The position numbers were made by a program, and so were the translations under genes. Shown here piece after piece: positions 50-33,205 of a stretch of 33,234 nt of DNA. The notes under the pieces are model-generated. The model ran no database searches. It was not told the DNA's origin and saw only the letters and a list, made by a program, of their open reading frames with translations. Numbering within the stretch: the first letter of the stretch is position 1; each line of letters opens with the position of its first letter. Origin of the DNA: a virus; IMG/VR virus record IMGVR_UViG_3300037673_000034. One strand, written 5' to 3'.

Positions 50-127
<78 letters not shown>

Positions 128-25049: not shown

Positions 25050-25243
25050 TTTTATCTCTCCTTATAAGTAAATTCAGTCAGATAATTATCTTAGCTGATT
25101 TTAATAAAATAAACAAAGAAATTCTTAAATTTTTTATCTCTACTTGGGATAATTTAATTTGCTTGCTCAGGGGGATACCTTCGCAGATTTTGTTAACATC
25201 CTTGCTAATCTGTATCATAGTTTTTGTTAACAAATTGTTAACA
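24921..25243. repeat. Cluster of six perfect TGTTAACA palindromes
   Basis: At 24921, 24932, 24950, 25191, 25225 and 25236; most are preceded by TTT; two pairs are 11 bp apart. Confidence 0.85.
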
Positions 25244-25272
25244 TCCTTGTTATTGTTTAGCATAGTCATCAA
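25078..25272 (-). CDS. Possible small hypothetical protein (contains three of the repeats)
   Basis: Fills the gap in the operon, but the composition may be driven by the DNA repeats. Confidence 0.35.
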   Translation of the reverse strand: MMTMLNNNKDVNNLLTKTMIQISKDVNKICEGIPLSKQIKLSQVEIKNLRISLFILLKSAKIII

Positions 25273-25672
25273 TCCTCCTGAATCTTATAACGATAAATGG
25301 TTCTGGTGCCAACTCTAACAACTGATACTTAGAGAAAAACCATTCATCCATCTCATCTGAATTCTTGAACCCATCTCGCCTTGATAGTTCCTCCTCTTCT
25401 TCAATCGTCAGAAAGTGTCTGTAATCACTATCTGGCTCAGGAGCGGTAAGCTTATCCGGCACGAACCATAATAAAAATAAATCCGTGATCTCCGCATCAA
25501 AGAGCTTTTCACACTCTTTCGTTCTCTGTTTCCAGTAGATCTGGAGTTTCCGTCCTTCTTCTTTCGCTTTGAGAAGTTGTTTCCACCTGTACTCTGAAAA
25601 TGGACGGATTGTTTGATCCTTCTCCCCCGACAGCAGTTTGTCCTTGAAAATTGAGAATGAAATTGCGACCAT
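25250..25672 (-). CDS. ASCH-domain protein
   Basis: F..F.DKLLSGEKDQTIR and RRDGFKNSDEMDEWF ASCH signatures. Confidence 0.85.
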   Translation of the reverse strand: MVAISFSIFKDKLLSGEKDQTIRPFSEYRWKQLLKAKEEGRKLQIYWKQRTKECEKLFDAEITDLFLLWFVPDKLTAPEPDSDYRHFLTIEEEEELSRRDGFKNSDEMDEWFFSKYQLLELAPEPFIVIRFRRIDDYAKQ

Positions 25673-26217
25673 TATTGATCTACCCTGTACCTCTCGTTCA
25701 ATCTTTCAATTTCATCGAGGACGGCAACAACATCTCTGTATCTGACATCTCCCATCGTTGCAATGAACTTCCTGAGAGCATGCTTTTCATTCGCCTTCCT
25801 TGCTTTATCGATTGCATCCAGAACAGCCCTGATGTCTCTCTTTCTCAGGTTAGTTTTTCCATAGATCAGGGCCTCCAGATCCTCCCTCTTGAAGGCGTAG
25901 TTTATCTTCGTTAGCTCATCGCTTATTTTCCGCAAGATCTGGACAGCCTCCTCTACCATTGAGCCGTATCTCGTTATCTCTTCATATGTTGTCTCTTTCT
26001 GTAATGGTTCCTCTTTGAGCGGGCAGCCTTCTAAAAACTCGATCAGGATTATCTCCCCAGTAGCGAGACAAACCTCTTTGTCTCCATTCATATTAGCGAT
26101 GCCGAAATATTTGCAGTTGTTACATCCAAAGATCTCTACCTTAACTCTCCCATCAACTTCTTCCACTTCTTCCCCTATCTCCTCAAACTCCCCATTCTCA
26201 ACAACTAAATCCTCCAT
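25672..26217 (-). CDS. Hypothetical protein with CxxC..C..C motif and helical C-terminus
   Basis: Start ATG 26217 after GGAGGTG; GCNNCKYF...C...GCP. Confidence 0.75.
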   Translation of the reverse strand: MEDLVVENGEFEEIGEEVEEVDGRVKVEIFGCNNCKYFGIANMNGDKEVCLATGEIILIEFLEGCPLKEEPLQKETTYEEITRYGSMVEEAVQILRKISDELTKINYAFKREDLEALIYGKTNLRKRDIRAVLDAIDKARKANEKHALRKFIATMGDVRYRDVVAVLDEIERLNERYRVDQ

Positions 26218-26221
26218 AACC

Positions 26222-26458
26222 TTACACCTCCTCCTCAAAAAATTCATCAAGAGATTCGTTGAGGTGTCCCACTGGATCCAAGTTAATCTCGAAAACAGAT
26301 CCCTTCTTCAGAGTTTTCAGGACCTCTTTTAAGGCATCCTTGCTCTTTGCTGTGATGGTAAGCGTGAATTTTGCCGAGCCGTTTCCTTCCAGTTTAGCTT
26401 TGAGCTTTCTTCCCTTCAAAGAATCTTCTGCTGACAGAGATTTCAAGGTTAGATACAT
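26222..26458 (-). CDS. Small protein with C-terminal PIP-like motif (NESLDEFF)
   Basis: Directly downstream of PCNA; GGAGGGG RBS. Confidence 0.75.
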   Translation of the reverse strand: MYLTLKSLSAEDSLKGRKLKAKLEGNGSAKFTLTITAKSKDALKEVLKTLKKGSVFEINLDPVGHLNESLDEFFEEEV

Positions 26459-26469
26459 GTTACCCCTCC

Positions 26470-27213
26470 TTATCCCTCCGCTTCAATCCTCGGAGCTAGG
26501 ATGTATGTAACATAGGCATCGCCGGAGCCATCATCCTCGTCGAGGAAGAAGGTAAACTTCCCAGGATAGTTCGTGCCCAGATCTATCGTTACAATATCTC
26601 CACCAACCTTGACGAATTCTGCTACATACTCTAAGGAGAAGAGACTCCTCGCCTTGGATCCAACCTCTATCCCTGAGTCGTAAACAAGCTTTTCCAGGTC
26701 ACCCTCTGCAATGGCAAGAAACTTCTTGTTCGTCTCGAGAGAGATGTGTTCTGTTAGTTTGTTCGCAGCTTTTATGAAGTTGCTGAACTCTTTGAGGTTA
26801 AGCTCAACTTCAACTGGTAAATTCAGGTTGGGCTCCTTGGGTTCCTTCCTGATTGCGTTAAGGTCGATTAAAGAGAGGGCATACTCTAATTTCCCTGATT
26901 CAAGAATGAATTCACCATCTCTCGAATCGATGCTTACCGTATCATCGTTCTTCAGCATTTTAGAGAAGTCGAACAGCCTTGGAACATCGATACCATACAC
27001 ATTTTCTGCTCCTGGACCGGTTGCTCCCAGCGGCAAATCATAACTCTCGAAGCTTGAGGATGGAATTTCAATTATGCACATGCAAATGTTCGCCTGATCT
27101 ACAACCCTAACACTCAAACCATCTTCTCCAAACCTGAACCTCGCTTCGTTAACGAAGGGGTTCAGGGCTTTTAATATCGATTTGAGAAGCTTAGCCTTGA
27201 TTACAACCTCCAT
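26470..27213 (-). CDS. pcn: DNA polymerase sliding clamp (PCNA)
   Basis: EARF.F...GL.VR.VD.AN..M, LID..AIRKEP..P.L.LP (interdomain loop), ARS.FS..Y..EF, LGTNYP, YILAPRIE; full length 247 aa. Confidence 0.96.
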   Translation of the reverse strand: MEVVIKAKLLKSILKALNPFVNEARFRFGEDGLSVRVVDQANICMCIIEIPSSSFESYDLPLGATGPGAENVYGIDVPRLFDFSKMLKNDDTVSIDSRDGEFILESGKLEYALSLIDLNAIRKEPKEPNLNLPVEVELNLKEFSNFIKAANKLTEHISLETNKKFLAIAEGDLEKLVYDSGIEVGSKARSLFSLEYVAEFVKVGGDIVTIDLGTNYPGKFTFFLDEDDGSGDAYVTYILAPRIEAEG

Positions 27214-27225
27214 AACATCACCTCC

Positions 27226-27777
27226 TTAAAATTTTAAAAAATCAGACATCGGCTTCAGATCCTTAACAGGAATCACATAAGCAGGACTTTTGATGTCCCT
27301 CCTCACAGTGTAATTTGCAATCTTCTTCGCATGAATCCATCCGATTAAAACAACCTGAGTGAGCTCGAAGTTGGTAGCAGCGAAAACAACAATATAATTG
27401 TAATCCTCTTTCTGATCGTACTGATTCTTGTTGTAAAATAGATTCGGTGTTTTCATGCTTATAGGATCCTTGAGGGTGGCAGTTTTAACCTCTACGGGAA
27501 TCTGCCTCGATTTTAGGATTATTATGAAATCATCCTGCTCATCGAGAGTTGAATAGTCATCCCGGAAGGGTACATGCTTAACCGGGATTCCGTTGTCGAG
27601 GCAGAAGCGGAAGAAAGCGAGTTCACCCATCTTCCCCTGCATGTGCTTTACAAGCCCACCGTTGCCGAATCTTGACTTCATTCCATTGCTGAACGATGCA
27701 AAAACAGTCTTGCCAGCGTAGTAAGCTGCATCCTGGATGAACTTGTCGGTTACAGGGATGCTTACTGGTTCAGGCAT
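27226..27777 (-). CDS. PD-(D/E)xK restriction-endonuclease-like nuclease
   Basis: GKMGELAF ... DD(F) ... VEVKT catalytic pattern and the later VLIGW motif. Confidence 0.75.
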   Translation of the reverse strand: MPEPVSIPVTDKFIQDAAYYAGKTVFASFSNGMKSRFGNGGLVKHMQGKMGELAFFRFCLDNGIPVKHVPFRDDYSTLDEQDDFIIILKSRQIPVEVKTATLKDPISMKTPNLFYNKNQYDQKEDYNYIVVFAATNFELTQVVLIGWIHAKKIANYTVRRDIKSPAYVIPVKDLKPMSDFLKF

Positions 27778-27782
27778 CGGAA

Positions 27783-27908
27783 TCAGCCCTCATGATCCTC
27801 AACAGCAATACCCATCTTTTCCAGAAACTCATCTATCTCTCTGAGCAGCTCTTCTATCTGCTTCAATTCGAGTTCGATGTCTTCAACTGAAATCTCATCG
27901 ATCTCCAT
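27783..27908 (-). CDS. 41-aa acidic coiled-coil microprotein
   Basis: MEIDEISVEDIELELKQIEELLREIDEFLEK; GGAGTGA RBS. Confidence 0.65.
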   Translation of the reverse strand: MEIDEISVEDIELELKQIEELLREIDEFLEKMGIAVEDHEG

Positions 27909-27912
27909 GCTA

Positions 27913-28002
27913 TCACTCCGGATCCAGAATCTCACCGCAATTACAGCAAACTTTGAAATCCTGCATGTGTTCAAAACAGACAGAACCGCATCTTGGGCAC
28001 AT
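27913..28002 (-). CDS. 29-aa Zn-ribbon microprotein (not in ORF track)
   Basis: MCPRCGSVCFEHMQDFKVCCNCGEILDPE; AGGTGA RBS. Confidence 0.7.
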   Translation of the reverse strand: MCPRCGSVCFEHMQDFKVCCNCGEILDPE

Positions 28003-28010
28003 GATGTCAC

Positions 28011-28313
28011 CTATCTCCCTTCAACCCAGCAAGCTGGTTTCGGGTGGGGTGAGTGAGCGGTGACGGCAGACGGAAAGGGGGGTGATTGAGCAGAAATTTG
28101 AGCAGAACTCCCGCCAGCTGCCGGGTGCATCAAGTTCTCTCCATGAGTCCATGGGTGTTCAGCTTCTCCATAGATCCATGCTCGTGCAAACCTCTGAAAT
28201 CGCCTTCTACTTCTCCATTGATGCCTGACATCGCAGATCTTCATCTCGTCTCTTCTGAGGTGATTGAGGATCCAGAATTTTCTCTGCCCAGAAAAGAATC
28301 TCAGGCAGTACAT
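28011..28313 (-). CDS. Hypothetical protein (100 aa)
   Basis: ATG overlaps the upstream stop (TGATG); no recognisable motif. Confidence 0.45.
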   Translation of the reverse strand: MYCLRFFSGQRKFWILNHLRRDEMKICDVRHQWRSRRRFQRFARAWIYGEAEHPWTHGENLMHPAAGGSSAQISAQSPPFPSAVTAHSPHPKPACWVEGR

Positions 28314-28939
28314 CAGCCCTCCACCTTCCATGGTTTGCCGATTGTTTCAGCTTCAATTCTGAGCTTGTTTCTGTTCTCTTCCCTCAGATAACCGTCTGAC
28401 ATCTTCACAGCTATGAGCTGTCTTCCTATTCTACGAATCTCTGCATCGAATTCAACATGAGCGAAAACCCTGATAAGACCTGCAGCTTGATTAGATGTAA
28501 GCTGTAAACCAAACTCTTCAGCCTTCTCAACCAAGTCTTTTGTCGTGAACTCTTCTGGTAAAGCATCGTATAGTTCCTTGACTTTGGAGAATGGGAAGTG
28601 GAAAGTGGAGCTATTGAGTTTGTATTTTACTATAATCTGGTCGTTCTTTTTGTCCACGATGTATTCGTAATTATTATGAGTGTCTACTACAGGCTCAAGG
28701 TCAGTTTTCTTTATGTGTTTCTTTCGCTCCCGTCTGGTTTCTTTTACTTCTGTTTCTGTTGTCTCCTGGATCTCAGTTTTGTTTTCCTCTATGTTTTCTT
28801 TAATCTTTTCCGTTCGTTCTGATGGCTCATTTTTCCGCTGCAGATGATCGATGAACTGTTTTGCTATGTCGTAAGCCTTCTCGTCAATCATAACAGCAAT
28901 AACATAGGTATATTTCATCGTTTCAGCCGAAAGTTCCAT
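28313..28939 (-). CDS. Hypothetical protein, possible C-terminal winged helix
   Basis: Charged linker then FTTKDLVEKAEEFGL..TSNQAAGLIRVF. Confidence 0.75.
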   Translation of the reverse strand: MELSAETMKYTYVIAVMIDEKAYDIAKQFIDHLQRKNEPSERTEKIKENIEENKTEIQETTETEVKETRRERKKHIKKTDLEPVVDTHNNYEYIVDKKNDQIIVKYKLNSSTFHFPFSKVKELYDALPEEFTTKDLVEKAEEFGLQLTSNQAAGLIRVFAHVEFDAEIRRIGRQLIAVKMSDGYLREENRNKLRIEAETIGKPWKVEG

Positions 28940-29047
28940 TTAAAACACCCCATGCTGTAATCGCCATAGAAATCACTTTGGCAGTCACATACCAGCTTCT
29001 CACCCATACCACTATGTCAAACGATCCTGATCCTCTACGCAACTCCC

Positions 29048-29173
29048 TCACCTCGTATAATCGTCGCAGTACATCACGGCGGTTGTAGGATAGCTGTGTT
29101 TCAGGCAGAAAGAGCCCTTGAAGAACTGGCAGGATCCACAGCAATTGGCAGGCTTGAAGTTAGGCGGAATCAC
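29048..29173 (-). CDS. 41-aa Cys/His microprotein (not in ORF track)
   Basis: (M)IPPNFKPANCCGSCQFFKGSFCLKHSYPTTAVMYCDDYTR; GTGA overlap with the upstream stop. Confidence 0.65.
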   Translation of the reverse strand: MIPPNFKPANCCGSCQFFKGSFCLKHSYPTTAVMYCDDYTR

Positions 29174-29349
29174 AGCTCCTCCCTCCTCAAATAATTGTCT
29201 AAAAAATTCTTGATCGCTGGAACATTGCTGAAGTTACTCTCAAGGAAGTTTCTTATCTCTGCCAGGCACAAAGATCCAGCAGGAAATTCGCTGCTCTCTA
29301 TCCTCATGGACTCGTAGTTGCCGAGGTTGATCGTAAAACCGATCTTCAT
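29170..29349 (-). CDS. 59-aa microprotein (not in ORF track)
   Basis: MKIGFTINLGNYESMRIE..., a motif seen in phage small proteins; ATGA overlap and GGAGGTG RBS. Confidence 0.75.
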   Translation of the reverse strand: MKIGFTINLGNYESMRIESSEFPAGSLCLAEIRNFLESNFSNVPAIKNFLDNYLRREEL

Positions 29350-29516
29350 TCTCCACCTCCGTTACTGATCCTGCAGATCTCCTTCATGATGGAATCCTTG
29401 ATAGCCTCAATGACCTCTCGTTCATGGTCCATTTCCAGAGCAGCGAGCTTTGTCTGGGCATCGACGAGGAGCTTTAATGCCTCAGCAGCTACTATCATCT
29501 TTCGAGAGTCGATCAT
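29346..29516 (-). CDS. 56-aa helical microprotein (not in ORF track)
   Basis: MIDSRKMIVAAEALKLL...; ATGA overlap with the upstream stop. Confidence 0.7.
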   Translation of the reverse strand: MIDSRKMIVAAEALKLLVDAQTKLAALEMDHEREVIEAIKDSIMKEICRISNGGGE

Positions 29517-29902
29517 GGAAACACCTCCAGAGTTGCCTGCTTGCTCGCTGTAGCTAACGCATCGACAAGAGAACCCATCTTCTGCTCTCTAGGGCAAGGC
29601 GAGATCGTTGCATAAGGACAGCAAGGAGAACAGCAGTAAGCATCAGGGCAACCATCGTCTGAATGATAGAAAACAGGTCTACCACAGTTCTTACAGCGGA
29701 CCTCTCCTTCTCGCAGCGTTGGATACTTCTTCAGGTTCTTGTTGTATTCTCTGTGGGCTTTAAGCCTGAGTTTTTCTATCCGTGAGTTCAGCTTTTCCCT
29801 GAAATCAAGGTTTGTAACATACTTGCGGTAGCATACGGGCCCGATGCCCTTGCGGACGCTGTCGGGGTTGCTAAGCGGTTTGCCACAGATGCCGCACCTC
29901 AT
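29513..29902 (-). CDS. DUF6011-like Zn-finger protein with C-terminal PIP box
   Basis: CGICGKPL...S...GIGPVC; a second Cys cluster; ends KQATLEVFP. Confidence 0.82.
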   Translation of the reverse strand: MRCGICGKPLSNPDSVRKGIGPVCYRKYVTNLDFREKLNSRIEKLRLKAHREYNKNLKKYPTLREGEVRCKNCGRPVFYHSDDGCPDAYCCSPCCPYATISPCPREQKMGSLVDALATASKQATLEVFP

Positions 29903-29903
29903 T

Positions 29904-30197
29904 TTAACCCTCCGTCAAGAAAAACTCCCTCAGCTTTGTGTCAGCTTCCCTGATCTTCTCGATGATAGCATCGAGGTCTGTGCCGTTGTAGGTTATGGTC
30001 CAGCCGTAGCTTCCCTTCTGGCCTCTCGATACCTCGATCTTGAGCTCCGGCTGCTTTGGGTGGGTGTAGTGATCGTGGCGGATTGTTTGGCTGGGGATAA
30101 GGTTTGAAGAGATGTTGATCTGCGGGAGTTGAGGAGGTATATCTGAATCCGTTGTATCCGTTATGTTGAGTTTAGGATGGAGTTCGCTCTCAGGCAT
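29904..30197 (-). CDS. Hypothetical protein
   Basis: KIEVSRGQKGSYGWTITY beta-hairpin plus helix; GGAGG RBS. Confidence 0.7.
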   Translation of the reverse strand: MPESELHPKLNITDTTDSDIPPQLPQINISSNLIPSQTIRHDHYTHPKQPELKIEVSRGQKGSYGWTITYNGTDLDAIIEKIREADTKLREFFLTEG

Positions 30198-30371
30198 GTG
30201 CCTCGACCTCCTGCTGAAACTTCTCTACTTCCTTGCTCAGGTTGACCAGCTCTTCCCACTCTGCATCGATCGGCCCTACGGGCATTGAGTTGGGTTGTCA
30301 ATCGTCCTGACGATCAGGAAGCATGGCTCGTCTGGGTTGCAGACCTCGCAGGAGAAGACTTTCCGGTCCAT
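30190..30371 (-). pseudogene. Frame-broken Cys-rich microprotein (31 aa to TAG 30276; 60 aa if C3 is read as C4)
   Basis: MDRKVFSCEVCNPDEPCFLIVRTIDNPTQCP*. The -1 frame continues VGPIDAEWEELVNLSKEVEKFQQEVEAHA* and overlaps the next ATG. Confidence 0.55.
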
Positions 30372-30373
30372 GA

Positions 30374-30580
30374 TTAGACCTCCTTGGTGACGGTTTCTTT
30401 TTTATCTCCCCCGTGGGGGTGTTCGACAACCAAAACAGATTTATATTCCTCAATGAGCTTTCTAATCGCTGTTCTAACTGCGTCACTAACATTCATAAAA
30501 TAACCCTCTTTGGTTAGCCTCTGAAGAGCCTTAAGATCGCCCTCGGAGATCCTCACATTCACATACTTGTCATCAACCAC
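30374..30580 (-). CDS. RHH transcriptional regulator (Cro-like position, first gene of leftward operon)
   Basis: YVNVRISEGDL..L..L.KEGYFMNVSDAVRTAIRKL; GAGGTGA RBS. Confidence 0.9.
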   Translation of the reverse strand: MVDDKYVNVRISEGDLKALQRLTKEGYFMNVSDAVRTAIRKLIEEYKSVLVVEHPHGGDKKETVTKEV

Positions 30581-31068: not shown

Positions 31069-31086
31069 GTCTTGGAGGTGGTTTGT

Positions 31087-31665
31087 TTGGAAGTCCCCCC
31101 AGAAATATCTGAGAATTTGTATCCTGAGGAGAAAGTCCTCTATTGTATAAAAAAGAAATTGAGAACAGATCTAAAGCCAAAATTTCTAGCAGTAACGGAT
31201 AGGAGAGTTCTGTACTTAGATCAAAAATTACTGGGCAGATACGATCTCGAAGATATTCCTTATGAGAAATTGGAATTTGTCCACTACAAGAAGGGTAAGA
31301 TAGGAGCTGAATTTGATATAAAGAGAGAAGACGGCTCGAAATTAAAATTGAGTTGGATGGATAGAAAAGAGGCAACCGAAGCTATAGAAGCAATTAAAGA
31401 CGCCCTAAATGCTATTGCTGTTGAACCGGTGAGTATAAAGAAAAAGAAGGGTCTGATCGGAGAGAAAATGAGCATAGCTAAGCCAAAAGAGATTGTAACT
31501 AGAACTCTACCCATGACCACTGTGGTAGAGAAAACAATTAGTGGATCTATGGAATCTGAAGATCCCCTCGATAAATTAAAGAAACTTAAGGAGCTACATG
31601 AGGCTAGAATTCTGACAGATGAAGAATTTGAGGAAAAGAAGAGAGCTTTGTTGGATAAAATTTGA
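31087..31665 (+). CDS. Bacterial-type PH-domain protein with C-terminal SHOCT domain
   Basis: LAVTDRRVLY......EDIPYEKLE.V PH motif; DPLDKLKKLKELHEARILTDEEFEEKKRALL SHOCT. TTG 31087 follows GGAGGTG. Confidence 0.85.
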   Translation: MEVPPEISENLYPEEKVLYCIKKKLRTDLKPKFLAVTDRRVLYLDQKLLGRYDLEDIPYEKLEFVHYKKGKIGAEFDIKREDGSKLKLSWMDRKEATEAIEAIKDALNAIAVEPVSIKKKKGLIGEKMSIAKPKEIVTRTLPMTTVVEKTISGSMESEDPLDKLKKLKELHEARILTDEEFEEKKRALLDKI

Positions 31666-32020: not shown

Positions 32021-32851
32021 TTGATGAGATCAAAATTGATATTGTTGATCCTATTTTCATTAATTCTTATCGGATGCTCGAGTCAGGAAGTGCAAACTCC
32101 ACAGCAGACTCCTACTCCAACTTCAACCATTACTCCCACATCAACTCCAGTCTCAATGTCAACTTCAACACCGACTGCAGCGGCTACTCCAACACCTATA
32201 CCGTTTGAGCTTCAATACAGTGTGAAATACAAGGTCGAGGTTGTAGATGTGGTTGATGGAGACACCATAGATATTATACTGCCTGATGGATCCAAAGAGC
32301 GAGTTAGGATGCTTGGAGTTGATACTCCCGAAACAACTGCAGAGAAAAACAAACCAAATGAGTACGATGGAATAACTGACCTTGAATGTCTCGCATACTG
32401 GGGCATCCAAGCAAAAAACTTTGCAAAATCGATGCTTGAGGGAAAATACGCTTACATCGAATTTGATTCGACTGCAGGTTTCAGGGGTTACTATGGGCGA
32501 TTGCTCGCCTATGTTTACACTGAAAACGGACAGGATTTTACAGCTGAACTCATCAAACAAGGTTATGCACGAGTTTATGAGGAAGGAGAATGCCAGAAGG
32601 AATCCGAGTACTTGAGTTATCAGAACTCAGCTATGAATGGTAATTTAGGGTTATGGATCTGTAGAGTTTTGGCAACACCAACTCCTACACAAACATTACA
32701 GAACTGCGACGATGCTTATCCTACTGTATGTATTCCGCCACCACCACCAGATCTAGATTGCGGAGATATTCCTTATAGGAATTTTCAAGTTCTTCCACCA
32801 GACCCCCATAAATTTGATAGGGATAAAGATGGAATTGGTTGTGAGTCATAA
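32021..32851 (+). CDS. Lipoprotein thermonuclease (SNase-like) with Thr/Pro linker and Excalibur-like Ca-binding tail
   Basis: Lipobox LILIGC; VVDGDT, RVRMLGVDTPE, YGRLLAYV; C-terminal DLDC....DRDKDGIGCE. Confidence 0.92.
   Translation: MMRSKLILLILFSLILIGCSSQEVQTPQQTPTPTSTITPTSTPVSMSTSTPTAAATPTPIPFELQYSVKYKVEVVDVVDGDTIDIILPDGSKERVRMLGVDTPETTAEKNKPNEYDGITDLECLAYWGIQAKNFAKSMLEGKYAYIEFDSTAGFRGYYGRLLAYVYTENGQDFTAELIKQGYARVYEEGECQKESEYLSYQNSAMNGNLGLWICRVLATPTPTQTLQNCDDAYPTVCIPPPPPDLDCGDIPYRNFQVLPPDPHKFDRDKDGIGCES

Positions 32852-32887: not shown

Positions 32888-33205
<318 letters not shown>

What the first reader, a model, noticed from the sequence alone, without database searches (positions are those of the whole stretch)
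26222..29902. Viral PCNA with its own PIP-box clientele but no recognisable replicase
I found no polymerase, MCM/helicase, primase or Orc1/Cdc6, yet a full-length PCNA is encoded. C-terminal PIP-like motifs occur in the same early operon: KQATLEVF (29519-29539; canonical QxxLxxF, similar to archaeal FEN1 PIP boxes) in the DUF6011-like protein, and NESLDEFF (26237-26260) in the 78-aa protein right after PCNA. A weaker one, LKPMSDFL (27235-27258), is in the nuclease. Inference: the virus remodels the host replisome through a private clamp and adaptors, or jams the host clamp.
Basis: partly seen in the sequence, partly recalled or inferred. Interest (0 to 1): 0.75.

Follow-up and report, generated by a model that had tools for sequence, protein, structure and literature searches.

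The report
Stand-alone viral PCNA with conserved partners
A complete tailed virus integrated in an Archaeoglobus-type archaeon has no DNA polymerase or helicase but carries its own sliding clamp (PCNA), always beside a small nuclease and a tiny protein whose floppy tail resembles a clamp-binding peptide; only that one of the three proposed clamp-binding motifs survives testing.

Summary
The sequence facts are correct. The window is one complete 33-kb provirus, bounded by an exact 72-nt att repeat in tRNA-Glu. It encodes a full-length PCNA and no recognisable polymerase, helicase, primase or Orc1/Cdc6. The three C-terminal motifs lie at the stated coordinates.

Stand-alone PCNA in archaeal tailed viruses is already described in the literature. 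None of the three motifs is a canonical PIP box.
not supported. Three of four homologues lack the aromatic residue.
- **Nuclease tail:** not supported. It is the confidently modelled last helix of an Hjc-like PD-(D/E)xK fold, and distant relatives without a nearby PCNA keep it.
- **78-aa protein:** holds up. Its tail is disordered. L70 is nearly invariant and F73 invariant in 15 family members ([ND]x[ST]L[DS][DE]F, like the Archaeoglobus PIP QSTLDSFF). The gene sits beside a viral PCNA in all ten loci with context, in either gene order. A complex prediction gave weak support.

Nuclease, PCNA and small protein recur together in related Archaeoglobi proviruses, including cultured A. sulfaticallidus PM70-1 and a Geoglobus acetivorans genome. 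A conserved TGTTAACA site cluster with an RHH-like protein is the best unconventional origin/initiator lead. Other notes of this scan cover this same provirus; none reports the module on other DNA.

The parts
26470..27213 (-). Viral PCNA (247 aa), full length and stand-alone
   Evidence: Pfam PCNA_N E 1.1e-7. PHROG processivity factor. 42-46% identity to Archaeoglobus PCNAs. A. fulgidus PCNA 1RWZ/1RXM E 3e-46 over the whole length. IDCL (K123 E124 P128) and C-terminal LAPRxE are invariant. Long branch in the tree.
26222..26458 (-). 78-aa small beta-rich protein with a disordered acidic tail; best candidate PCNA partner
   Evidence: AF2 gives b-b-b-a-b, then tail 61-78 at pLDDT 60 falling to 49, with a short helix at residues 71-74. 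The family has 15 members with L70 nearly invariant and F73 invariant. The gene lies next to PCNA in the window, L001, L009, L011, L014, L018, L021, L022, L027 and L028. Complex prediction gave weak support.
26237..26260 (-). NESLDEFF, the PIP-like motif in the tail of the 78-aa protein
   Evidence: Family consensus is [ND]x[ST]L[DS][DE]F followed by acidic residues. It resembles the A. fulgidus PIP consensus QSTLDSFF (PMC4929162) and a host NreA tail QLTLGSFFS.
27226..27777 (-). 183-aa Hjc-like PD-(D/E)xK nuclease directly upstream of PCNA
   Evidence: D82 D83 E96 K98 are invariant in 28 homologues. AF2 pLDDT 88.7. VIA Z 8.0-8.7 to SSV D212, I-Ssp6803I, P. furiosus Hjc and A. fulgidus Hjc. 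It lies immediately upstream of PCNA, or within about 1.2 kb upstream in the same operon, in every related locus examined.
27235..27258 (-). LKPMSDFL: terminal helix of the nuclease fold, probably not a PIP
   Evidence: Helix 177-182, pLDDT about 93 for residues 171-180. Structural alignments to Hjc-type folds run to residue 183. Distant homologues in L016 and L017 have no PCNA in the locus yet keep LKDVNVIV.
29513..29902 (-). 129-aa DUF6011 zinc-ribbon / Cys-rich protein
   Evidence: Pfam DUF6011 E 3.5e-13. Present in the window, L009, L011 and L019 only; absent from L001.
29519..29539 (-). QATLEVF: Q and L conserved, aromatic not conserved; not a PIP by conservation
   Evidence: The four homologues end QATLEVFP, QATLEV, QAVLEV and QMTLKPEG.
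28313..28939 (-). 208-aa protein with a C-terminal winged-helix domain (DNA binder, not a helicase)
   Evidence: The Atlas structure search places residues about 90-185 on DUF7528, ArsR and other wHTH models at TM 0.26-0.36 by query length, which is below the 0.5 usually taken for the same fold, so this is a lead. Conserved in L001, L009, L013 and L014. No PDB relative by profile.
24534..25049 (-). 171-aa RHH-like protein overlapped by the TGTTAACA cluster; candidate origin- or operator-binding protein
   Evidence: Conserved in L009, L011, L013 and L015. Six of the seven TGTTAACA copies in the window lie at 24921-25243, against 0.44 expected for the whole window. The same two-group cluster lies at the homologous gene where that gene was mapped (L009, L011, L013, L015) and recurs in every other provirus lineage whose locus covers that part of the operon.
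56..127 (+). attL (72-nt repeat inside tRNA-Glu); sets the provirus boundary
   Evidence: Exact direct repeat with 33108-33179. tRNA-Glu(CTC) at 50-125.
33108..33179 (+). attR

Best explanation
The window is a complete temperate contractile-tailed provirus of an Archaeoglobi-type archaeon that encodes no replicase of its own.

Its early operon carries a conserved three-gene module: an Hjc-like PD-(D/E)xK nuclease, a diverged but full-length PCNA, and a 78-aa beta-rich protein.

Proposed mechanism:
- The virus is copied by the host replisome. This is inferred from the absence of viral replisome genes.
- The viral clamp is loaded by host RFC, because no viral loader exists and the PIP-binding elements of the clamp are conserved. 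This is inferred.
- The small protein docks on the clamp through its disordered acidic tail, whose conserved [ND]x[ST]L[DS][DE]F peptide imitates the host PIP box (QSTLDSFF). Conservation and gene linkage are shown; binding is inferred.
- The nuclease probably works with the clamp as a junction- or flap-processing enzyme, as cellular Hjc and NucS do. If it touches PCNA, it is not through the proposed C-terminal 'PIP', which is part of its fold.
- The DUF6011 protein is an accessory zinc-finger protein. Its QxxL tail is not a PIP box.
For: Complete provirus and gene content.

No replicase family in any ORF, and nothing larger than 208 aa unassigned outside the virion, packaging and integration modules. 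Profile searches of the 208-, 171- and 192-aa proteins and the DUF6011 protein against PDB found nothing replicative.

PCNA is genuine, with IDCL and LAPRIE conserved.

The module recurs in at least ten related loci, including A. sulfaticallidus PM70-1 and Geoglobus acetivorans proviruses.

Small protein:
- The tail is disordered with a short helix over DEFF.
- L70 and F73 are two of only nine invariant or nearly invariant positions across 15 members reaching down to 35% identity.
- The gene is adjacent to PCNA downstream in eight loci and upstream, overlapping the PCNA start, in L021 and L022. Linkage is therefore kept although the order is not.
- Complex prediction of PCNA with the small protein: ipSAE 0.33 (runs 0.32, 0.33, 0.36), best of 3 controls 0.00, tool verdict 'weak support'. 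That mark was reached by 58 of 80 solved complexes and 2 of 110 mismatched pairs, but at 0.60 or under by only 7 of those 80 and by both mismatches that passed. Runs agree in at least 91% of contacts and partner pLDDT is at least 65. PCNA-PIP peptide complexes are solved, so part of this score may be memory of the likeness.

Host-type PIPs for comparison: QSTLDSFF (PMC4929162) and QLTLGSFFS in the NreA beside L001.

Nuclease fold and catalytic residues.
Against: - Binding of the small protein to either clamp is not shown. The complex score is in the weak band.
- The motif lacks the PIP glutamine (N, D or G instead). Position 8 is aromatic only in some members (F, L, Q, P, S, V, G or I). Many members have a 2-residue insertion before a second F.
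- An acidic tail with aromatics after a small beta-barrel is also the classic design of single-stranded-DNA-binding proteins, so the tail may have another target.
- L019 and L020 have PCNA and the nuclease, but an unrelated small gene follows PCNA.
- Use of the host replisome rests on absence of evidence. Small unconventional initiators, such as the 171-aa RHH-like protein with its TGTTAACA sites, cannot be excluded.
Confidence: 0.55

Rival explanations
1. One reading: the viral clamp has three private PIP-box clients (DUF6011 protein, 78-aa protein, nuclease) that together remodel or jam the host replisome.
For: All three genes are in the PCNA operon and end in peptides with hydrophobic or aromatic residues at PIP-like spacing. 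Q122 and L125 of the DUF6011 tail are invariant in four homologues. The nuclease tail L[KR]xMxx[FL][LVA] is conserved in 28 homologues.
Against: The DUF6011 aromatic is present in 1 of 4 homologues and the gene is missing from most related proviruses. The nuclease tail is a confidently modelled helix that superposes on the terminal helix of Hjc-type folds, and PCNA-less relatives keep it. The relaxed motif is found at 10 of 57 C-termini in this provirus.
Confidence: 0.08
2. The 78-aa protein is a small DNA-binding (SSB-like or chromatin-like) protein. Its acidic aromatic tail regulates its own DNA binding or recruits a partner other than PCNA. It sits next to PCNA only because replication genes cluster.
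For: The body is lysine-rich and the tail acidic. The model is a small beta-barrel with weak matches to OB folds and SSBs: Foldseek E 0.045-0.4; VIA Z 5.3 to Bartonella SSB, Z 5.5 to a nucleic-acid-binding OB protein. The motif lacks the PIP glutamine and position 8 varies.
Against: Fold matches are in the range the tool calls a common arrangement (Z under 8). Adjacency to PCNA is kept even where gene order is inverted. The conserved tail residues sit at PIP positions 4 and 7, with S/T-L-D as in the host FEN1-type PIP. The complex prediction was above all controls.
Confidence: 0.25
3. The small protein binds PCNA as an inhibitor, in the manner of Thermococcales TIP. It blocks host clients on the host or viral clamp instead of acting as an adaptor.
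For: The size and design are similar: a small beta-rich domain plus a terminal PIP-like peptide, as proposed for TIP in PMC4929162. It has no enzymatic domain.
Against: No sequence or structural relation to TIP was seen. It is always paired with a virus-encoded clamp, which is not needed merely to inhibit the host clamp. Nothing here measures inhibition.
Confidence: 0.12

Closest known systems
Archaeal tailed viruses that encode only a PCNA (haloarchaeal DHTV-3, -5, -8; PCNA of HHTV-1 and HSTV-1; 'stand-alone PCNA' cases in Kazlauskas et al. 2016)
   Same: A Caudoviricetes genome with a PCNA homologue and no polymerase; presumed use of the host replisome (bioRxiv 10.1101/2025.02.15.638363; PMC3950731; PMC4889955).
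   Different: The host lineage is Archaeoglobi. Here the PCNA is locked into a conserved module with an Hjc-like nuclease and a small PIP-tailed protein, which those papers do not describe.
Archaeal PIP-box clients with C-terminal motifs (FEN1, NreA, NucS; A. fulgidus consensus QSTLDSFF, PDB 1RXM)
   Same: A short peptide at the extreme, disordered C-terminus with S/T-L-D-x-F, followed or flanked by charged residues. NucS is also a PD-(D/E)xK nuclease working on PCNA (PMC4929162).
   Different: The small protein has N, D or G in place of the defining Q, and its position 8 is variable. The viral nuclease's terminal peptide is part of its fold.
TIP, the Thermococcales inhibitor of PCNA (64 aa)
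   Same: A very small, lineage-restricted protein with a beta-rich domain and a terminal putative PIP that binds PCNA (PMC4929162).
   Different: No detectable homology. The motif is at the C- instead of the N-terminus. It is virus-encoded and paired with a viral clamp. Its function is untested.
Hjc / SSV D212-type PD-(D/E)xK nucleases
   Same: The fold (VIA Z 8.0-8.7) and the D...E-x-K catalytic motif.
   Different: About 45 extra N-terminal helical residues. No Pfam, PHROG-function or NCBIfam assignment. Fixed position upstream of a viral PCNA.

Membership tests
PCNA sliding clamp | Full-length two-domain PCNA sequence | tested here: met
   Residues 2-246 align to A. fulgidus PCNA 3-245, E 3e-46. 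NCBIfam sliding-clamp subfamily scores 181.8 bits, below its curated cut-off of 207, so the protein is diverged.
PCNA sliding clamp | Interdomain connector loop and C-terminal LAPRIE that form the PIP-binding site | tested here: met
   K123, E124, P128, L239, A240, P241, R242 and E244 are invariant in 12 viral and cellular PCNAs.
PCNA sliding clamp | Forms a trimeric ring and is loaded by RFC | not tested
No RFC gene is present in the provirus.
Canonical PIP box (QxxhxxAA): 78-aa protein tail | Glutamine at position 1 | tested here: not met
   N in the window; N, D or G across 15 members.
Canonical PIP box (QxxhxxAA): 78-aa protein tail | Hydrophobic residue at position 4 and aromatic at position 7, conserved, in a disordered terminus | tested here: met
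   L70 is nearly invariant and F73 invariant. Tail pLDDT falls from 60 to 49.
Canonical PIP box (QxxhxxAA): 78-aa protein tail | Aromatic residue at position 8 | tested here: inconclusive
   F in the window clade; L, Q, P, S, V, G or I elsewhere, often with another F two residues later.
Canonical PIP box (QxxhxxAA): 78-aa protein tail | Binds PCNA | tested here: inconclusive
   Prediction only: ipSAE 0.33 against a best control of 0.00, tool verdict 'weak support'.
Canonical PIP box: DUF6011 protein tail | Aromatic residues at positions 7-8, conserved in homologues | tested here: not met
   Position 8 is P in the window. Homologues end QATLEV, QAVLEV or QMTLKPEG.
Canonical PIP box: nuclease tail | Flexible peptide outside the folded domain, with Q at position 1 | tested here: not met
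   L at position 1. Helix 177-182 with pLDDT about 93 for residues 171-180. It superposes on the terminal helix of Hjc-type folds.
Hjc-type PD-(D/E)xK nuclease | Restriction-endonuclease-like fold with the D...(D/E)xK motif | tested here: met
   D82, D83, E96 and K98 are invariant. Z 8.0-8.7 to D212, I-Ssp6803I, P. furiosus Hjc and A. fulgidus Hjc.
Hjc-type PD-(D/E)xK nuclease | Cleaves Holliday junctions | not testable with these tools
   Needs a biochemical assay.
TIP (Thermococcales inhibitor of PCNA) | Sequence or structural homology to TIP | tested here: inconclusive
   The fold and profile searches of the small protein gave only weak, generic matches.
Virus-encoded replicase or initiator (PolB, MCM, primase, Orc1/Cdc6, Rep) | Any ORF matching these families | tested here: not met
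   Pfam, PHROGs and NCBIfam on all ORFs of 100 aa or more and on the early ORFs. Profile searches against PDB for the three largest unknown early proteins.

The most novel reading that the evidence does not exclude
The 78-aa family is a previously undescribed virus-encoded PCNA-binding factor that co-evolves with virus-encoded clamps. The pair, together with the Hjc-like nuclease, would be what gives a 'stand-alone' viral PCNA its purpose: a private clamp-client system that marks viral replication or recombination intermediates. This would address the question raised by Kazlauskas et al. 2016 of why viruses carry a clamp without a polymerase. In the same reading, the 171-aa RHH-like protein with its conserved TGTTAACA array would be a lambda-O-like unconventional initiator.
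Probability: 0.3. Interest if true: 0.65.

Novelty: new member of a known kind. Interest (0 to 1): 0.45.

Why it matters
Why some viruses carry a sliding clamp but no polymerase is an openly stated puzzle (PMC4889955). This module gives a concrete, testable answer. Across a whole family of Archaeoglobi proviruses the clamp always travels with a junction-type nuclease, and in most of them also with a tiny protein bearing a PIP-like tail. A related provirus sits in a cultured strain, A. sulfaticallidus PM70-1, whose host PCNA is 62% identical to the proviral one. Binding specificity for the viral versus the host clamp can therefore be measured directly. If the small protein proves to be a clamp binder or inhibitor, it would add a viral entry to the short list of non-core archaeal PCNA partners.

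Tried and rejected
- **Locus searches that found nothing.** Single-sequence PCNA searches of viral contigs and genome contigs. The scan with the A. sulfaticallidus small protein found nothing, so no genome handle was obtained.
I therefore could not collect the host's own PIP-box set beyond one NreA tail.
The contexts of P0060-P0062 and P0068 are unknown.
- **Extra scans with the small-protein alignment.** The viral-contig scan re-found L013 and L014. The metagenome scan added only two short loci, both with PCNA upstream.
- **Fold of the small protein.** Foldseek against PDB and BFVD and VIA-wide gave only generic small-barrel matches (E at least 0.04; best Z 5.7). I do not call it an SSB. TIP did not appear in any list.
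- **P0066.** This 1027-aa hit of the small-protein profile is an Ig-repeat protein, a compositional match.
- **Other early proteins.** The Atlas search of the 192-aa protein and profile-PDB searches of the 208-, 171- and 192-aa proteins, the DUF6011 protein and the small protein gave nothing significant.
- **DUF6011 literature.** No paper mentions the family.
- **RNA evidence.** No RNA holder was listed for the region, and read laying was not used.
- **Mu-like transposition as the replication mode.** Considered because the portal and MuF proteins are Mu-type; rejected because integration is by a tyrosine integrase at tRNA-Glu with a 72-nt att repeat.

Full report
**What the window is.** An exact 72-nt direct repeat at 56-127 and 33108-33179 covers most of a tRNA-Glu(CTC) gene. 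Between the two copies lie:
- a tyrosine integrase at 172-993;
- a minus-strand structural and packaging block at 995-23434, with baseplate J, gp25, sheath, tape measure, capsid, MuF, Mu-type portal and large terminase;
- a minus-strand early operon at 24025-30580, behind a divergent pair of RHH genes.

The window therefore holds a whole provirus of about 33 kb, so the claim 'no replicase' can be tested on the full gene set.

**Observation.**
- The PCNA is real and full length. It is 42-46% identical to Archaeoglobus PCNAs and aligns end to end with A. fulgidus PCNA (E 3e-46). The interdomain connector loop and the C-terminal LAPRIE are invariant.
- No ORF matches a polymerase, MCM, primase, Orc1/Cdc6 or Rep family in Pfam, PHROGs or NCBIfam.
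- The unassigned early proteins are all 208 aa or shorter. Profile searches of the three largest against PDB found nothing replicative.
- The 208-aa protein may have a C-terminal winged helix; the Atlas structural matches are weak, TM 0.26-0.36.

**Are the motifs more than chance?** No provirus protein ends in a canonical PIP. The relaxed pattern h-x-x-a-a occurs in the last 15 residues of 10 of 57 proteins, five of them tail or head proteins. Composition shuffles give 2.5. The pattern mostly marks terminal amphipathic helices and is not specific by itself. Each motif therefore had to be tested by conservation and structure.

**Relatives.** The PCNA, the nuclease and the small protein led to a family of related proviruses and viral contigs:
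- L001 (86% PCNA identity);
- L009, in the chromosome of cultured Archaeoglobus sulfaticallidus PM70-1;
- L011, L013 and L014;
- L015 and L020, which carry identical PCNAs;
- L018, in Geoglobus acetivorans;
- L019, L021 and L022 (with L023, a second contig of the same sequence), L027 and L028.

All have the same layout: an RHH switch, small early genes, nuclease, PCNA, more small genes, then terminase. None shows a polymerase or helicase in the stretch fetched.

Viral PCNAs are interleaved with cellular Archaeoglobi PCNAs in a poorly resolved tree. The window/L001 clade sits on a long branch of 1.08 substitutions per site. In A. sulfaticallidus the proviral clamp is 62% identical to the host clamp.

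**DUF6011 protein.**
- The N-terminal zinc ribbon is a solid Pfam hit.
- The gene is present in only four lineages and is replaced by other small zinc-finger genes in the closest relative, L001.
- The four homologues end QATLEVFP, QATLEV, QAVLEV and QMTLKPEG. Q and L are invariant, but the aromatic that a PIP box needs exists only in the window copy, and position 8 there is proline.
The conserved QxxL end remains unexplained.

**Nuclease.**
- Twenty-eight homologues share D82, D83, E96 and K98.
- The AF2 model (pLDDT 88.7) is a PD-(D/E)xK fold. Its best matches are the fusellovirus nuclease D212, I-Ssp6803I and the Hjc resolvases of P. furiosus and A. fulgidus (Z 8.0-8.7). Foldseek gives the same families at E 1e-3 to 1e-2.
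- The tail L[KR]xMxx[FL][LVA] is conserved. However, it is modelled as a confident helix, at pLDDT about 93 for residues 171-180, and it lies inside the structural alignments, which run to residue 183.
- Distant homologues in L016 and L017 have no PCNA within the fetched locus (about 3.8 kb upstream, 7 kb downstream) yet keep the equivalent hydrophobic helix.

I read it as the last helix of the fold. The nuclease may still cooperate with the clamp, since cellular Hjc and NucS are reported to (PMC4929162 for NucS; the Hjc-PCNA interaction is from my own recollection). It would not do so through this peptide as a classical PIP.

**The 78-aa protein.**
- The family is small. A search of 1.84 billion cluster representatives found nine credible relatives at E up to 0.001.
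- In an alignment of 15 members reaching down to 35% identity, only nine positions are invariant or nearly so. Two of them, L70 and F73, lie in the otherwise variable tail, giving [ND]x[ST]L[DS][DE]F followed by acidic residues.
- AF2 (pLDDT 70) gives three strands, a helix and a fourth strand, then a low-confidence tail with one helical turn over DEFF. That is how a short linear motif usually looks in such models.
- The peptide resembles the A. fulgidus PIP consensus QSTLDSFF (PMC4929162) and the canonical QLTLGSFFS at the end of the host NreA beside L001. It has N, D or G for Q, and position 8 is not fixed.
- The gene lies within about 300 nt of a viral PCNA gene in all ten loci with context. 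It is downstream in eight. In L021 and L022 it is upstream and overlaps the PCNA start. In L013 it lies about 2 kb away in the same operon.
- L019 and L020 carry an unrelated small gene after PCNA.
- The one complex prediction allowed (PCNA plus small protein, both as alignments) gave ipSAE 0.33 with a best control of 0.00, which the tool grades 'weak support'. That mark was reached by 58 of 80 solved complexes and 2 of 110 mismatches, but at 0.60 or under by only 7 of the 80 and by both mismatches that passed. Runs agree in at least 91% of contacts and partner pLDDT is at least 65. Because PCNA-PIP peptide complexes are solved, some of this may be memory.
- Fold searches give only generic small-barrel or OB-like matches. 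An SSB-like role with an acidic tail remains a live rival.

**How it most likely works.**
- Shown: a complete provirus without replicase genes; a conserved nuclease-PCNA-small-protein module; a conserved, disordered PIP-like tail.
- Inferred: replication by the host replisome; loading of the viral clamp by host RFC; docking of the small protein on the clamp through its tail; clamp-assisted processing of junctions or flaps by the nuclease.
- Unresolved: whether the small protein is an adaptor, a DNA binder or a TIP-like inhibitor.

**A lead on the missing initiator.** Six of the window's seven TGTTAACA palindromes lie at 24921-25243, against 0.44 expected for the whole window. They sit in and just upstream of the 171-aa RHH-like gene. 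The same two-group array sits at the homologous gene in L009, L011, L013 and L015, where that gene was mapped, and recurs in every other provirus lineage whose locus covers that part of the operon. It could be an origin with its binding protein or an operator, and I did not resolve which.

**Comparison and novelty.**
- Stand-alone PCNA in archaeal tailed viruses is documented (PMC3950731; bioRxiv 10.1101/2025.02.15.638363). Its purpose is an explicitly open question (PMC4889955).
- PIP-tailed nucleases and a small PCNA inhibitor are known in cells (PMC4929162).
- New here is a lineage-specific viral module, in particular a small protein family with no Pfam, PHROG or NCBIfam model that is tightly linked to viral clamps.
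- I rate it a new member of a known kind, of moderate interest. It is testable in a cultured strain that carries a related provirus.

Noticed in passing
window 24921-25243 (and 3334); L009 10474-10796; L011, L013, L015, L018, L020, L022: Six TGTTAACA palindromes in two groups about 240 bp apart lie at the 5' end of, and upstream of, the 171-aa RHH-like gene (0.44 copies expected in the whole window). The same array is conserved in every related provirus lineage whose locus covers that part of the operon. It is a candidate origin or operator with its binding protein.
   Followed up: partly
window 28011-28331 (-): A 106-aa ORF of odd, Arg/Trp-rich composition overlaps the end of the 208-aa gene. 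It is conserved (51% identity) in L001:8606-8893, so it is probably a real gene of unknown function.
   Followed up: partly
window 26470-27213 (-): The window/L001/P0003 PCNA clade sits on a long branch (1.08 substitutions per site) among Archaeoglobi PCNAs. It has lineage-specific insertions, including an acidic loop LDEDDGSGDA near the C-terminus.
   Followed up: partly
L001 2137-3324 (-): The host NreA gene flanking the related provirus ends in a canonical PIP box, QLTLGSFFS. It is a useful positive control for the host lineage's motif.
   Followed up: no
L009 (A. sulfaticallidus PM70-1, CP005290.1 1339036-1359284): A cultured strain carries a related provirus with DUF6011 protein, nuclease, PCNA and small protein. 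Its proviral PCNA is 62% identical to the host PCNA.
   Followed up: partly
window 32021-32851 (+) and 31072-31665 (+): A lipoprotein-type SNase with an Excalibur domain and a bPH_3-SHOCT protein lie between the RHH switch and attR. SNase and bPH_3-type genes recur at the same end of relatives (L011, L018).
   Followed up: no
window 29904-30197 (-) and 29170-29349 (-): Two more early proteins end in h-x-x-a-a peptides (KLREFFLTEG; IKNFLDNYL). In homologues the first becomes KLREAFL or RLRRLFL, a helix end. This illustrates how unspecific the relaxed PIP pattern is.
   Followed up: partly
window 25672-26250 (-): A 192-aa protein with a conserved Cys cluster (C43, C46, C61, C76) and two repeated helices (DIRAVLDAIDKA / DVVAVLDEIERL) is conserved at 54-85% identity in L011, L013 and L028. 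It has no family assignment.
   Followed up: partly
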